Positions 18,516-19,848 of a stretch of DNA of 21,093 nucleotides are shown one piece after another (within the stretch, counting starts at the first letter, position 1; the number at the start of each line of letters is the position of its first letter). The translations under genes and the position numbers were made by a program. A model generated the notes under the pieces. That model ran no database searches and had not been told where the DNA came from. It saw only the letters and a program-made list of their open reading frames with translations. Source of the DNA: a virus (Duplodnaviria; Heunggongvirae; Uroviricota; Caudoviricetes); IMG/VR virus record IMGVR_UViG_2579778952_000011, positions 1 through 21,093 of that record, one strand, 5' to 3'.

Positions 18516-18547
18516 TGACACATATCAATAAAAAGTCTGATAAAATC
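18516..18547 (+). promoter_or_regulatory. Candidate sigma70 promoter for the zinc-ribbon gene
   Basis: A perfect -35 TTGACA at 18516..18521, followed after 17-20 nt by an A/T-rich -10-like stretch (tgataaaat). Confidence 0.35.
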
Positions 18548-18600
18548 AAAATGTTTTGTTACAAACGTCAGCTAGTAGAGAGCCAAAGGAGGCAGATTAT

Positions 18601-18933
18601 ATGGCATTAATCAAATGTCCTGAATGCCAGAAAGAGGTGATCGATTCAGTATTGTCTTGCCCTGCTTGTGGCAAACAACTGAAAAAACTTAAACGTTCAT
18701 TTTTTGGAGAACTCATTAAGTATTTTTTCATATTATTTAATATTTTTATAATCTACACGATTTGTGTTGGGCTAAGAGAGGTGGGTGAAATAATAAACAA
18801 CGCCACATCCGATGCCGAAAAAGCCGGTACAGTTATTGGTACGGGCTTAGGTTTAATTGCTATTGGAGGCTTATGGGTTATTTGCAATATCATTATCGGA
18901 AATTTAGTATTTCTTACTAAACCAAAGGGATAA
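18601..18933 (+). CDS. Zinc-ribbon membrane protein (N-terminal CPxC...CPxC ribbon plus 2 TM helices)
   Basis: AGGAGG Shine-Dalgarno then ATG at 18601; MALIKCPECQKEV...SCPACGKQL followed by two hydrophobic helices. AT-rich and of unknown function. Confidence 0.6.
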   Translation: MALIKCPECQKEVIDSVLSCPACGKQLKKLKRSFFGELIKYFFILFNIFIIYTICVGLREVGEIINNATSDAEKAGTVIGTGLGLIAIGGLWVICNIIIGNLVFLTKPKG

Positions 18934-18937
18934 CAAA

Positions 18938-19848
18938 ATGAAAAATATGATTATTTCTATAGGTGCATCATTTATATCAATTAGTGTGCTACCTGCTCAC
19001 GCAGCAACTGAGCATAATAACTTTAAGTCATCACTCCAGTGCCGAGCAATAGAAAATAATAAAGAAAGACTTTCTTGTTATGATAAGTCAATACAACCGA
19101 CTCGAACGACAGTTGCTGAAAAATTCGAAAGCAGAGATCAATGCCCTGATGAGAAAGATGATGACAGACGTTTATCTTGTTATGACCGTTTTTTTCTCCA
19201 ACATTTACTCCGCCTGTAAGCTCAAAATCTAAAGCGAAACAGCTAGTAACAACAGAGGCTCAGCAACCAAATCTTTCTGAGATATCTAAATGCCGAGCAG
19301 AAAACGATAAAGAAACTAGAGTAAACTGCTACGATAAACCATTTCCACAGGAAAAAGTTGCGCAATCTAAATCAAAATTAGAGAAAGCCACAGACACAGG
19401 AAAATGGCACACATCCATTACTACATCGCCAATTGATGATTCGAAAAATGTAATTTTATCGTTAGAAAGTGATGATTATATAAGAACTCCATTTGGAGAA
19501 GCGGTTACCCCTACTCTGTTTATAGCTTGCCGAGAAAAGAAAACCGAAGTATTTCTTAATTGGGATGTATATTTAGGCCTTGAACAAACCAGCATGCTGT
19601 ATCGCCTTGATAAACAGAAAGCAGTTGAGCGAAACTGGCTAGTATCTACAGATACAAAGGCTGTTTTTTATAAAGGCAATGACATTAACTTCATCAGAAA
19701 ACTAGCCAACTCAAACAAAATGTATGCAAAAATAACCCCTTATAATGAAAGCCCTGTAAGTGCAACTTTCAATTTAAACGGCCTGTCAACCACGCTAAAA
19801 CCGCTTCAAGAAGCCTGTAACTGGAAACAGTATAAATCATGCGGCTAA
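18938..19848 (+). pseudogene. Secreted Cys-repeat protein, reading frame broken at a T7 homopolymer (frameshifted or phase-variable)
   Basis: Signal peptide MKNMIISIGASFISISVLPAHA. The motif C-x10-RLSCYD(K/R) occurs twice in the 18938 frame and a third time (CRAENDKETRVNCYDK) in the -1 frame, which stays open from 19186 to 19848. The frames meet at the T7 run 19189..19195. Confidence 0.55.

What the first reader, a model, noticed from the sequence alone, without database searches (positions are those of the whole stretch)
18516..19848. AT-rich two-gene cargo: zinc-ribbon membrane protein plus a secreted Cys-repeat protein of unknown function
Immediately inside attR, in sequence far more AT-rich than the phage core, sit a zinc-ribbon/2-TM protein with a strong promoter-like -35 and a signal-peptide protein carrying three copies of a C-x10-R(L/V)xCYD(K/R) motif followed by a roughly 200-aa domain. 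I cannot match either to a well-characterised family from memory. The pairing of a membrane protein with a periplasmic protein, placed next to a hok toxin at a prophage end, fits an accessory (defence, exclusion or envelope-modifying) module.
Basis: inference. Interest (0 to 1): 0.6.

Follow-up and report, generated by a model that had tools for sequence, protein, structure and literature searches.

The report
Phage cargo: membrane protein plus broken TagO
At the right end of a P2-like prophage in E. coli sits a self-contained two-gene cargo unit: a small zinc-ribbon membrane protein and an exported protein of the VasI/TagO family, whose role is still unknown. The pair is common in P2-like phages, but in this window the second gene is broken by a one-base deletion.

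Summary
Window 18516-19848 has GC 0.36 against 0.53 for the phage. It lies between hok and the attR core (19977-19996) of a P2-like prophage inserted at pdxB/flk. It encodes a 110-aa zinc-ribbon/2-TM protein and a signal-peptide protein with three C-x8-R(L/V)xCYD(K/R) hairpins (x8, not x10) and a beta-sandwich domain.

The gene is split here by a T8-to-T7 deletion, which 41 of 46 genomes with this allele share.

The pair is a conserved operon. It occurs in 237 of 5426 complete E. coli genomes and in 66 of 77 IMG/VR loci, across genera and att sites, with dN/dS of 0.04-0.36. In other temperate phages VasI sits between the repressor and the integrase.

Function is unknown for the whole family. 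My inferred best guess is a lysogeny-expressed module acting at the cell envelope (exclusion or protection). The interest is moderate.

The parts
18515..18546 (+). Promoter-like region. It holds TTGACA (18515-18520) and an extended -10, TGaTAAAAT (18538-18546).
   Evidence: Read from the sequence. The CTGATAAAAT element is conserved upstream of the zinc-ribbon gene in E. coli, Klebsiella, Enterobacter, Dickeya and Brenneria. In the other alleles a TT(A/G)TCA -35 lies 16 nt upstream. The window has a 3-bp deletion in that spacer, and its TTGACA is 20 nt away. The consensus scanner did not call it.
18601..18933 (+). Zinc-ribbon / 2-TM inner-membrane protein, 110 aa (RefSeq WP_001420124.1, PHROG 6586). 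The zinc ribbon faces the cytoplasm, TM2 has a glycine zipper, and the periplasmic tip is about 18 residues.
   Evidence: AAGGAGG lies 7 nt before the ATG. PF13240 scores 24.5 bits. There is a weak match to DrpB/YedR (NF038392, E 0.0055). The AF2 model shows a ribbon at 3-26 and helices at 34-67 and 71-105. Orthologues at 57-66% identity occupy the same position in Klebsiella, Dickeya, Enterobacter, Brenneria and Salmonella. dN/dS is 0.04-0.36 in all pairs with unsaturated dS except window versus L005 (0.70). The window allele differs at 6 positions that are otherwise invariant, including G95C and D96N.
18938..19219 (+). 5' fragment of the VasI/TagO gene. It encodes the signal peptide (residues 1-22) and CYD hairpin repeats 1 and 2, then ends at a premature stop after the frameshift. 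RefSeq annotates it as a 93-aa 'hypothetical protein'.
19189..19195 (+). Frameshift site. The run is T7 here and T8 in intact alleles.
   Evidence: DNA alignment with L003, L004 and L005. Among E. coli genomes carrying this allele, 41 of 46 have exactly T7 and 5 have T8. No RNA structure lies downstream (z 0.56).
19196..19848 (+). 3' fragment of the VasI/TagO gene, in frame 1. It encodes the linker, CYD hairpin 3 (19291-19338) and the IalB-like beta-sandwich domain. A TAG-to-CAG change at the normal stop adds 6 residues (QYKSCG).
19860..19899 (+). Terminator hairpin closing the unit. The stem is 18 bp.
   Evidence: dG is -31.1 kcal/mol and z is -11.1. The hairpin is conserved in the E. coli and Citrobacter alleles, and analogous hairpins follow the gene in Klebsiella and Dickeya.
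19913..19996 (+). attR. It holds an arm-type repeat GTGGTCACTGCGTGGACA (19913-19930) and the 20-bp core TTTTCATCAACAAGGATTTT (19977-19996).

Best explanation
SHOWN.
- This is a 'moron', a self-contained accessory transcription unit, at the ogr-attP end of a P2-like (Peduoviridae) prophage.
- It has a conserved -10 element, two genes only 4 nt apart, and a strong terminator.
- Gene 1 encodes a small inner-membrane protein with a cytoplasmic zinc ribbon and a 2-TM helical hairpin containing a glycine zipper.
- Gene 2 encodes a Sec-exported periplasmic protein of the VasI/TagO family (PF11319). It has one to three disulfide-type C-x8-RLxCYD helical hairpins followed by an IalB-fold beta-sandwich.
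- The phage proteins form a subfamily distinct from the VasI encoded in T6SS clusters.
- In this window gene 2 is interrupted by a T8-to-T7 deletion. The full-length exported protein is therefore not made, or only in trace amounts.

INFERRED (mechanism).
- The intact unit is expressed in the lysogen and acts at the cell envelope. The periplasmic VasI-fold protein is the core component and is usually assisted by the membrane partner.
- The likely role is to protect the lysogen against incoming contractile injection devices: superinfecting phage, possibly T6SS attack. That would make it a superinfection-exclusion or envelope-shield function, not a phage structural role or a housekeeping role.

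The identity and anatomy are about 0.9 certain. The confidence of 0.35 given here refers to the proposed mechanism.
For: Cargo status:
- GC is 0.36 against 0.53, and the unit lies immediately inside attR.
- It is present in the circular genome record of the functional temperate phage phiSM, whose sample source is bacterial culture (PMC6456863).
- It falls in the region reported as a third P2-like hotspot between a tail gene and the repressor.

Conservation and selection:
- 237 of 5426 complete E. coli genomes carry it.
- The gpD-ogr-ZnR-VasI order recurs in Klebsiella, Dickeya, Raoultella, Brenneria and Salmonella at different att sites.
- 66 of 77 IMG/VR loci have the zinc-ribbon gene directly upstream of VasI.
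- dN/dS is 0.04-0.36 for both genes in all but one unsaturated pair.

Expression in the lysogen:
- In other temperate phages VasI sits between the C/CI repressor and the integrase (Serratia L112; L108), or directly after an S24 repressor (L111/L113).

Link to a membrane anchor:
- Alternative partners are a zinc-ribbon TM2-domain protein or a tail-anchored Flk_N-like protein.
- One Desulfococcaceae protein fuses a 2-TM N-terminus to a VasI domain.

Retention after prophage decay:
- The unit persists at cpxP-fieF in Izhakiella and Phytobacter, in an Enterobacter mori islet next to a 590-aa ORF that I read as DUF262-like (not checked against Pfam), and on ETEC plasmids.

Defence neighbours and phage relatives:
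- An AAA_15 ATPase lies beside VasI in Pectobacterium.
- Proteins with a similar fold occur in strictly lytic T4-like phages.

Independence from T6SS:
- A host with the identical cargo has only a degraded T6SS remnant at aspV.
- The phage proteins fail the T6SS-VasI equivalog threshold, which a real T6SS VasI passes.
Against: - No experiment exists for any phage VasI.
- There is no PADLOC match, and both PHROG families are of unknown function.
- The only functional data for the family come from V. cholerae VCA0118. They point to a role in the attacker's T6SS killing, not in protection.
- The nearest folds (IalB, a polar-flagellar-motor ring component, RgsG) have no known molecular activity.
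- VasI occurs without any membrane partner in 11 of 77 viral loci and in Salmonella L030, so a strict two-component mechanism is not required.
- Placement beside hotspots and repressors is guilt by association.
- 41 of 46 genomes with this allele tolerate the frameshift, so selection for the function is weak in that lineage.
Confidence: 0.35

Rival explanations
1. T6SS accessory supplied in trans. The phage TagO works like V. cholerae VCA0118, improving the killing efficiency of the host's own type VI secretion system. The prophage would then make its lysogen a better competitor (lysogenic conversion).
For: - Homology to T6SS VasI is real. PF11319 scores 83.7 bits. BLASTP against the E. coli Sakai T6SS-cluster VasI gives 26% identity over 196 aa (E 5e-11), with the same CYD hairpin, beta domain and C-terminal ACxW.
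- VCA0118 is dispensable for Hcp and VgrG secretion but needed for killing of amoebae and E. coli.
- The phiSM paper listed the gene as a T6SS-related virulence cargo.
- The frameshifted allele sits in a host whose aspV T6SS is degraded, which could reflect decay once the partner machine is lost.
Against: - All phage proteins tested score 42-76 bits on the T6SS VasI equivalog model (cut-off 124.2), while the real one scores 257.
- In roughly 120 loci inspected, no homologue of this clade lies in a T6SS cluster.
- The clade has its own membrane partner and extra hairpins that the one T6SS-cluster VasI compared here (ECs_0222) does not show.
- T6SS clusters that use VasI already encode one.
- Proteins of similar fold occur in lytic T4-like phages.
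Confidence: 0.2
2. Sensor plus membrane effector (abortive-infection type). The periplasmic VasI domain senses envelope breach or a phage component. The glycine-zipper 2-TM protein oligomerises into a pore that depolarises the cell.
For: - TM2 carries a GxGxGxxxGG glycine zipper and a conserved Asp.
- The genes are tightly coupled, 4 nt apart.
- The zinc-ribbon/2-TM family is very large and modular, with 3496 representatives at E <= 1e-3.
- The unit neighbours hok and defence-type genes.
Against: - VasI often occurs without this partner.
- The model gives only a short periplasmic tip, about 18 residues, to contact VasI.
- There is no toxicity evidence and no PADLOC match.
Confidence: 0.1
3. 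Role in the phage life cycle. The pair would help the P2-like phage itself, for example in lysis timing, tail or baseplate function, DNA entry, or preventing progeny from adsorbing to lysed cells. It would then not be a benefit to the host.
For: - The unit lies next to the late tail genes and ogr.
- P2 tails and T6SS are homologous machines, and VasI is linked to T6SS.
- Structural relatives occur in lytic myoviruses.
Against: - Its base composition is foreign to the phage and it has its own terminator.
- It is found in only 237 of 5426 complete E. coli genomes. Whether P2-like prophages that lack it are otherwise complete was not surveyed.
- It can be found inverted, or on the repressor-integrase side.
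- It is retained in islets and plasmids that have no phage genes.
- 41 of 46 genomes with this allele, 9 of them on plasmid remnants, carry the frameshift. Whether those prophages are still viable was not tested.
Confidence: 0.08
4. Functionless AT-rich filler, or chance ORFs.
For: - The second gene is a pseudogene in this window.
- The window's zinc-ribbon allele has unusual substitutions and a raised dN/dS of 0.36-0.70 against its closest relatives.
Against: - Both genes are conserved in order, spacing and length from E. coli to Dickeya, with saturated dS and a low dN.
- The Cys framework is invariant.
- The predicted fold is confident.
- This reading can hold only for this decayed allele, not for the module as a whole.
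Confidence: 0.03

Closest known systems
T6SS-associated protein VasI / TagO (PF11319, TIGR03360; V. cholerae VCA0118, E. coli Sakai ECs_0222)
   Same: - Same domain family and architecture: signal peptide, a C-x8-RLxCYD hairpin, a beta-sandwich with a conserved internal Cys, and a C-terminal ACxW.
- Exported and small.
- No known molecular function.
   Different: - Encoded in prophages and phage remnants, never in a T6SS cluster, in every locus examined.
- 26% identity to the E. coli T6SS copy.
- Scores 42-76 bits against the 124.2-bit equivalog cut-off, while ECs_0222 scores 257.
- One to three hairpin repeats where ECs_0222 has one.
- Usually translationally coupled to a zinc-ribbon/2-TM protein.
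IalB (invasion-associated locus B, PF06776; PDB 3dtd) and IalB-domain envelope proteins such as S. meliloti RgsG
   Different: The fold search and the sequence comparison give no match to the N-terminal CYD hairpins. IalB proteins are chromosomal genes of alphaproteobacteria, and their function is also unknown.
Envelope-level superinfection-exclusion pairs of phages, e.g. T4 Imm (inner membrane) plus Sp (periplasm) (from general knowledge, not tested here)
   Same: A small inner-membrane protein paired with a periplasm-facing protein, encoded by a myovirus and acting on the host envelope. This is the functional analogy behind the proposed mechanism.
   Different: No sequence or fold similarity was found, and no exclusion phenotype has been shown for the VasI pair. 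T4 expresses its genes during lytic growth, whereas this unit sits in prophage cargo or lysogeny positions.
P2 accessory loci (old/tin, Z/fun) and the third P2-like hotspot between the tail genes and the repressor
   Same: AT-rich, variable cargo inserted at a fixed position in a conserved P2-like backbone. The window also carries cargo at the Z/fun position.
   Different: The cargo here is not a recognised defence system. It is unusually conserved across genera for a hotspot occupant.
DrpB/YedR and TM2-domain (PF05154) small 2-TM proteins
   Same: The 2-TM hairpin has the same size and topology. There are weak profile hits to DrpB. A zinc-ribbon TM2 protein replaces the ZnR protein next to VasI in another E. 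coli P2-like prophage.
   Different: The scores are far below the family cut-offs (17 bits against 50), so membership is not established.

Membership tests
Pfam PF11319 VasI domain family | Whole-protein score above the Pfam gathering threshold | tested here: met
   The frame-restored protein scores 83.7 bits against a cut-off of 26.5, covering residues 118-296 and profile positions 1-184 of 184. All homologues carry PF11319.
Pfam PF11319 VasI domain family | Exported protein with a conserved Cys framework (CYD hairpin pair plus a beta-domain pair) | tested here: met
   The signal peptide ends in AHA|A. C119, C131, C198 and C294 are invariant or nearly invariant across 59 homologues. The same positions align in the T6SS copy ECs_0222.
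T6SS VasI/TagO equivalog (NCBIfam TIGR03360) | Score above the curated equivalog cut-off (124.2 bits) | tested here: not met
   The window protein scores 71.8 bits. P0001 scores 75.7, P0063 42.6, P0048 56.9 and P0256 62.3. The positive control ECs_0222 scores 257.4.
T6SS VasI/TagO equivalog (NCBIfam TIGR03360) | Encoded inside a T6SS gene cluster (between clpV/vasH and tssA/tssM) | tested here: not met
   In the window the gene lies between hok and attR of a prophage. None of the related loci examined shows T6SS genes. The control cluster is shown.
T6SS VasI/TagO equivalog (NCBIfam TIGR03360) | Contributes to T6SS-dependent killing without being needed for Hcp secretion (VCA0118 phenotype) | not testable with these tools
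   This needs genetics. The phenotype is known only for V. cholerae.
IalB fold | Structural superposition with solved IalB | tested here: met
   [not shown]
Phage moron (autonomous accessory unit) | Own promoter and terminator, deviant composition, variable presence in related phages | tested here: met
   A -10 element is conserved across genera. The terminator has dG -31.1 and z -11. GC is 0.36 against 0.53. The unit is present in only 237 of 5426 complete E. coli genomes. Promoter activity itself was not tested.
Known anti-phage defence systems (PADLOC-DB 2.0) | Match to a defence-system protein model | tested here: not met
   There is no meaningful hit for either protein or for their variants.
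DrpB/YedR family | Score above the NCBIfam NF038392 cut-off (50 bits) | tested here: not met
   The score is 17 bits (E 0.0055) over residues 28-109. Only 'weak' PF28000 marks appear on the Klebsiella orthologues.

The most novel reading that the evidence does not exclude
VasI-fold proteins may be a general class of periplasmic 'puncture shields'.
- Temperate phages would express them from lysogeny or moron positions, often with a small membrane anchor, to blunt incoming contractile injection devices (myovirus tails, T6SS spikes).
- T6SS clusters would carry their own VasI to survive fire from sister cells.
- This would explain a puzzling result in V. cholerae. A VCA0118 mutant secretes Hcp normally in liquid culture but fails in contact-dependent killing assays on solid media.
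- It would give TagO/VasI its first molecular role.
Probability: 0.1. Interest if true: 0.75.

Novelty: new variant of a known kind. Interest (0 to 1): 0.36.

Why it matters
TagO/VasI is one of the T6SS-associated proteins whose function a 2026 review still lists as unknown.

This work suggests that a large, well-conserved branch of the family is carried as temperate-phage cargo outside any T6SS cluster. That branch is usually coupled to a zinc-ribbon/2-TM protein and is often placed in the repressor-integrase operon.

This matters in two ways:
- It offers a simple two-gene system to study the family in T6SS-free E. coli, with natural intact and frameshifted alleles as controls.
- It warns that the RefSeq name 'type VI secretion system-associated protein TagO' on prophage genes should not be read as evidence of T6SS function or virulence.

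For this particular window the practical message is modest: the module is already annotated, and its key gene is a pseudogene.

Tried and rejected
2. A literature search for the motif (RLACYD, RLSCYD, RLxCYD) found nothing. DUF3121 led only to the V. cholerae paper.
3. Profile searches did not reach T6SS-cluster VasI proteins through the word-indexed database. I instead took the E. coli Sakai T6SS cluster directly as a control.
4. Programmed frameshifting was considered. The T7 run is in register as U_UUU_UUU, and a -1 slip would recreate the wild-type protein exactly. However, there is no downstream structure (z 0.56) and no upstream SD-like element, so I treat the shift as a plain mutation.
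5. Phase variation was considered and judged unlikely. The T7 state is shared by chromosomal and plasmid copies of one allele, and the phiSM allele has an interrupted run.
6. The exhaustive search with the zinc-ribbon/2-TM profile found a very large family (3496 representatives). Pfam scans of ten longer members gave no informative fused domain and no VasI fusion.
I inspected only one host locus.
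Full report
WHAT IS IN THE WINDOW

The window is the right-hand 20 kb of a P2-like prophage plus the host gene flk. It is 100% identical to ETEC-type E. coli chromosomes such as NZ_CM128605.1 and O6:H16 NZ_CP024275.1. The gene order is tail genes, gpD (16548-17789), ogr (17832-18092), hok (18283-18423), the two-gene region of the finding, and then flk (20098-21093).

Comparison with the empty K-12 site and with the left end of the same prophage defines a 20-bp att core, TTTTCATCAACAAGGATTTT. It lies at 19977-19996 (attR) and again next to pdxB (attL). 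The finding is therefore the last coding DNA inside attR. Its GC content is 0.363, against 0.534 for the rest of the phage and 0.513 for the host flank.

ANATOMY

Gene 1 is 18601-18933, 110 aa, with AAGGAGG 7 nt upstream of the ATG.
- It has an N-terminal CxxC-x10-CxxC zinc ribbon (PF13240, 24.5 bits against a cut-off of 25).
- A basic stretch follows, then two hydrophobic helices. TM2 carries a glycine zipper.
- By the positive-inside rule the ribbon is cytoplasmic, and only about 18 residues face the periplasm.

Gene 2 starts 4 nt after the stop of gene 1 (18938).
- It encodes a signal peptide ending in AHA|A.
- Three copies of C-x8-R(L/V)xCYD(K/R) follow, at 19040-19087, 19142-19189 and 19291-19338. 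These are the only matches in the six-frame translation of the window.
- A C-terminal domain of about 160 residues completes the protein.

The reading frame breaks in a run of seven T (19189-19195). Intact alleles have eight T and encode a 297-aa protein: O111:H2 strain 12A at 99% identity, phage 500465-2, and Citrobacter phage phiSM. The window allele also has TAG changed to CAG at the normal stop, which adds QYKSCG.

An 18-bp hairpin closes the unit (19860-19899, dG -31.1 kcal/mol, z -11). Integrase arm-type repeats and the att core follow it.

Upstream, the best-conserved promoter element across genera is CTGATAAAAT, an extended -10.
- In other alleles a TT(A/G)TCA -35 lies 16 nt upstream of it.
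- The window has a 3-bp deletion in that spacer.
- The consensus scan did not call a promoter here.

IDENTITY OF THE PROTEINS

The second protein does match a named family. The restored sequence scores 83.7 bits on Pfam PF11319 (VasI, EvfG, VC_A0118; cut-off 26.5), and RefSeq names it 'type VI secretion system-associated protein TagO'.

Four Cys positions are invariant or nearly so in 59 homologues. This is consistent with one disulfide in the hairpin and one in the beta domain (inference).

Membership must be qualified. On NCBIfam TIGR03360, the equivalog model for T6SS VasI, the window protein scores 71.8 bits and four other phage homologues score 42-76 bits. The cut-off is 124.2 bits. The VasI from the E. 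coli Sakai T6SS cluster (ECs_0222, between clpV and tssA/tssM) scores 257.4 bits. ECs_0222 and the phage protein share 26% identity over 196 residues and the same architecture. They are homologues, but the phage proteins form a separate subfamily.

The first protein belongs to PHROG 6586 and VasI to PHROG 1848. Both are 'unknown function', and neither matches PADLOC. An exhaustive profile search shows that the zinc-ribbon/2-TM fold is a very large family, with 3496 cluster representatives at E <= 1e-3. Similarity to DrpB/YedR is weak and below threshold.

DISTRIBUTION AND CONTEXT

The cargo DNA occurs in 237 of 5426 complete E. coli genomes. Of these, 43 are at 99% identity or more, and 191 are at 90-95% with an intact TagO and two annotated genes. 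It is also found in deposited phages: Escherichia phage 500465-2, PhiR44_2, Xuanwuvirus P884B11, Citrobacter phage phiSM, and, at 69% identity, Klebsiella phage 3LV2017 and relatives. phiSM is a functional temperate phage. Its 2019 description already lists ORF1 as a 'T6SS VasI family protein' cargo gene, by annotation only.

Protein-level searches and context look-ups show the order gpD-ogr-(hok)-ZnR-VasI-att in several settings:
- Klebsiella, next to yccJ/wrbA and next to fieF/pfkA;
- Dickeya, next to pflB;
- Raoultella, Brenneria and Salmonella.

Among 77 IMG/VR viral contigs encoding a relative, 66 have the zinc-ribbon gene immediately upstream, and VasI is typically the last gene of a contig of about 30-37 kb.

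Both genes are under purifying selection. dN/dS is 0.04-0.36 where dS is not saturated, apart from one window-allele pair at 0.70, and dS is saturated between genera while the proteins stay 57-66% identical.

Variants are informative.
- Another E. coli P2-like prophage, at tamB/ytfP, has a two-hairpin VasI convergent with a zinc-ribbon TM2-domain protein.
- A Salmonella prophage has the inverted VasI with no membrane partner.
- In Serratia and other temperate phages VasI lies between the C/CI repressor and the integrase. It can also follow an S24 repressor directly, sometimes preceded by a tail-anchored Flk_N-like membrane protein and followed by an AAA_15 ATPase.
- A Desulfococcaceae protein fuses a 2-TM N-terminus to a VasI domain.
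- Phage-free islets keep the genes: between cpxP and fieF in Izhakiella and Phytobacter, an att site used by Klebsiella P2-like phages, and next to a 590-aa ORF that I read as DUF262-like (not checked against Pfam) in Enterobacter mori.
- Nine ETEC plasmids keep a gpD'-ogr-hok-ZnR-TagO remnant.
- None of the inspected loci is a T6SS cluster.

STATE OF THE MODULE IN THIS WINDOW

Forty-six complete E. coli genomes carry this close allele. Of these, 41 have exactly T7 (split gene) and 5 have T8. The chromosomal and plasmid copies share the lesion, so it is inherited and is not a sequencing error.

The T7 run is in register as U_UUU_UUU, and a -1 slip would recreate the wild-type protein. However, no stimulatory structure follows it, so I regard it as an inactivating mutation with at most trace read-through.

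The window's zinc-ribbon protein differs at six positions that are invariant in the other orthologues, including G95C and D96N in TM2. Five of these changes are shared with the intact-TagO strain 12A.

A host with the identical cargo has only a degraded T6SS remnant at aspV: hcp, a VasL-domain gene, and a truncated tssM fused to rhs. Other T6SS loci in that genome were not checked.

HOW IT MOST LIKELY WORKS

The following is shown:
- the unit is an autonomous, selected, phage-borne two-gene unit;
- it encodes an inner-membrane protein and an exported VasI/IalB-fold protein.

The following is inferred:
- it is expressed in lysogens, based on its moron structure and on repeated placement in repressor-integrase operons;
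- it acts at the envelope;
- VasI is the core component, because it occurs alone, and a membrane-anchored partner is a frequent helper.

I commit, at about 0.35, to an envelope-level protective or exclusion role against incoming contractile injection (superinfecting phage, possibly T6SS).

The main rival, at about 0.2, is that it boosts the host's own T6SS, as VCA0118 does in V. cholerae. VCA0118 is dispensable for Hcp and VgrG secretion but required for killing. Three observations argue against this rival: the failed equivalog test, the absence of any T6SS linkage in the loci examined, and the degraded T6SS in one host. The last point could also be read the other way, as decay of the gene after loss of its partner machine.

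A sensor-plus-pore abortive mechanism and a phage life-cycle role are less likely. 'Junk' is excluded at the family level.

COMPARISON AND NOVELTY

A 2026 review lists TagO/VasI function as unknown. IalB-domain proteins are likewise uncharacterised at the molecular level. The ogr-att-int-C region has been reported as a third P2-like hotspot.

I did not find the following described in the library searched:
- a distinct phage-borne VasI subfamily;
- its conserved coupling to a zinc-ribbon/2-TM protein;
- its recurrent placement in lysogeny operons.

This makes it a new variant of a known kind. The finding is moderately interesting as a route to the function of TagO/VasI. This specific locus is ordinary: it is already annotated, and its key gene is a pseudogene.

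Noticed in passing
L016 (NZ_CP025863.1 plasmid p504237_142, record 139401-141864); eight other ETEC plasmids of 87-149 kb: Large ETEC plasmids carry a remnant of the same P2-like right end: partial gpD, ogr, hok, the zinc-ribbon gene and split TagO with the identical T7 frameshift. It lies next to a group II intron and IS66 elements, with no flk.
   Followed up: partly
window 19977-19996 and L007 about 14660-14690 (attL): The att core overlaps the first codons of host pdxB. At attL the K-12 GTG start is replaced by phage sequence. RefSeq annotates pdxB as 1113 nt where K-12 has 1137 nt, so integration trims or re-starts pdxB.
   Followed up: partly
window about 10213-10758 (minus strand), within the AT-rich stretch 10001-11000 (GC 0.38-0.41): There is a second cargo locus at the P2 Z/fun position, between the tail-fibre assembly and tail genes. 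It encodes a serine acetyltransferase, according to the RefSeq annotation of the identical genome.
   Followed up: no
L117 (NZ_CP024275.1 339333-349652): The O6:H16 host that carries the identical prophage has a degraded aspV T6SS island: hcp, a VasL-domain gene, and a tssM truncated and fused to an rhs fragment. tssB, tssC, clpV and vasI are absent. Other T6SS loci in that genome were not checked.
   Followed up: partly
[not shown]
   Followed up: no
window 18515-18546 versus L004/L005: The window allele has a 3-bp deletion in the promoter spacer relative to alleles with intact TagO. The conserved -35 is left 13 nt from the -10, where other alleles have 16 nt. This could lower expression of the unit.
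   Followed up: partly
window 19828-19848: The normal TAG stop of TagO is CAG in this allele. This extends the ORF by six residues (QYKSCG) and adds an unpaired cysteine. The 99%-identical intact allele (L003) keeps TAG.
   Followed up: yes
window 16548-17789 (L001 18537-19390): RefSeq annotates gpD oddly in these genomes, as an 801-nt 'VgrG/Pvc8 family' CDS plus a 93-nt partial pseudogene on the other strand. Yet a continuous 413-codon ORF is present and aligns full-length at 98% to gpD of other P2-like prophages.
   Followed up: no
L111 3237-4510; L113 6366-7642: Some non-P2 temperate phages carry two tandem, divergent VasI paralogues directly after an S24 (LexA-like) repressor.
   Followed up: no
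window 18432-18455: A 10-bp GC-rich hairpin lies just after hok. It is probably the 3' fold-back element of the hok mRNA and separates hok from the AT-rich unit. Klebsiella and Dickeya versions of the cargo lack hok altogether, so hok is an independent insertion.
   Followed up: no
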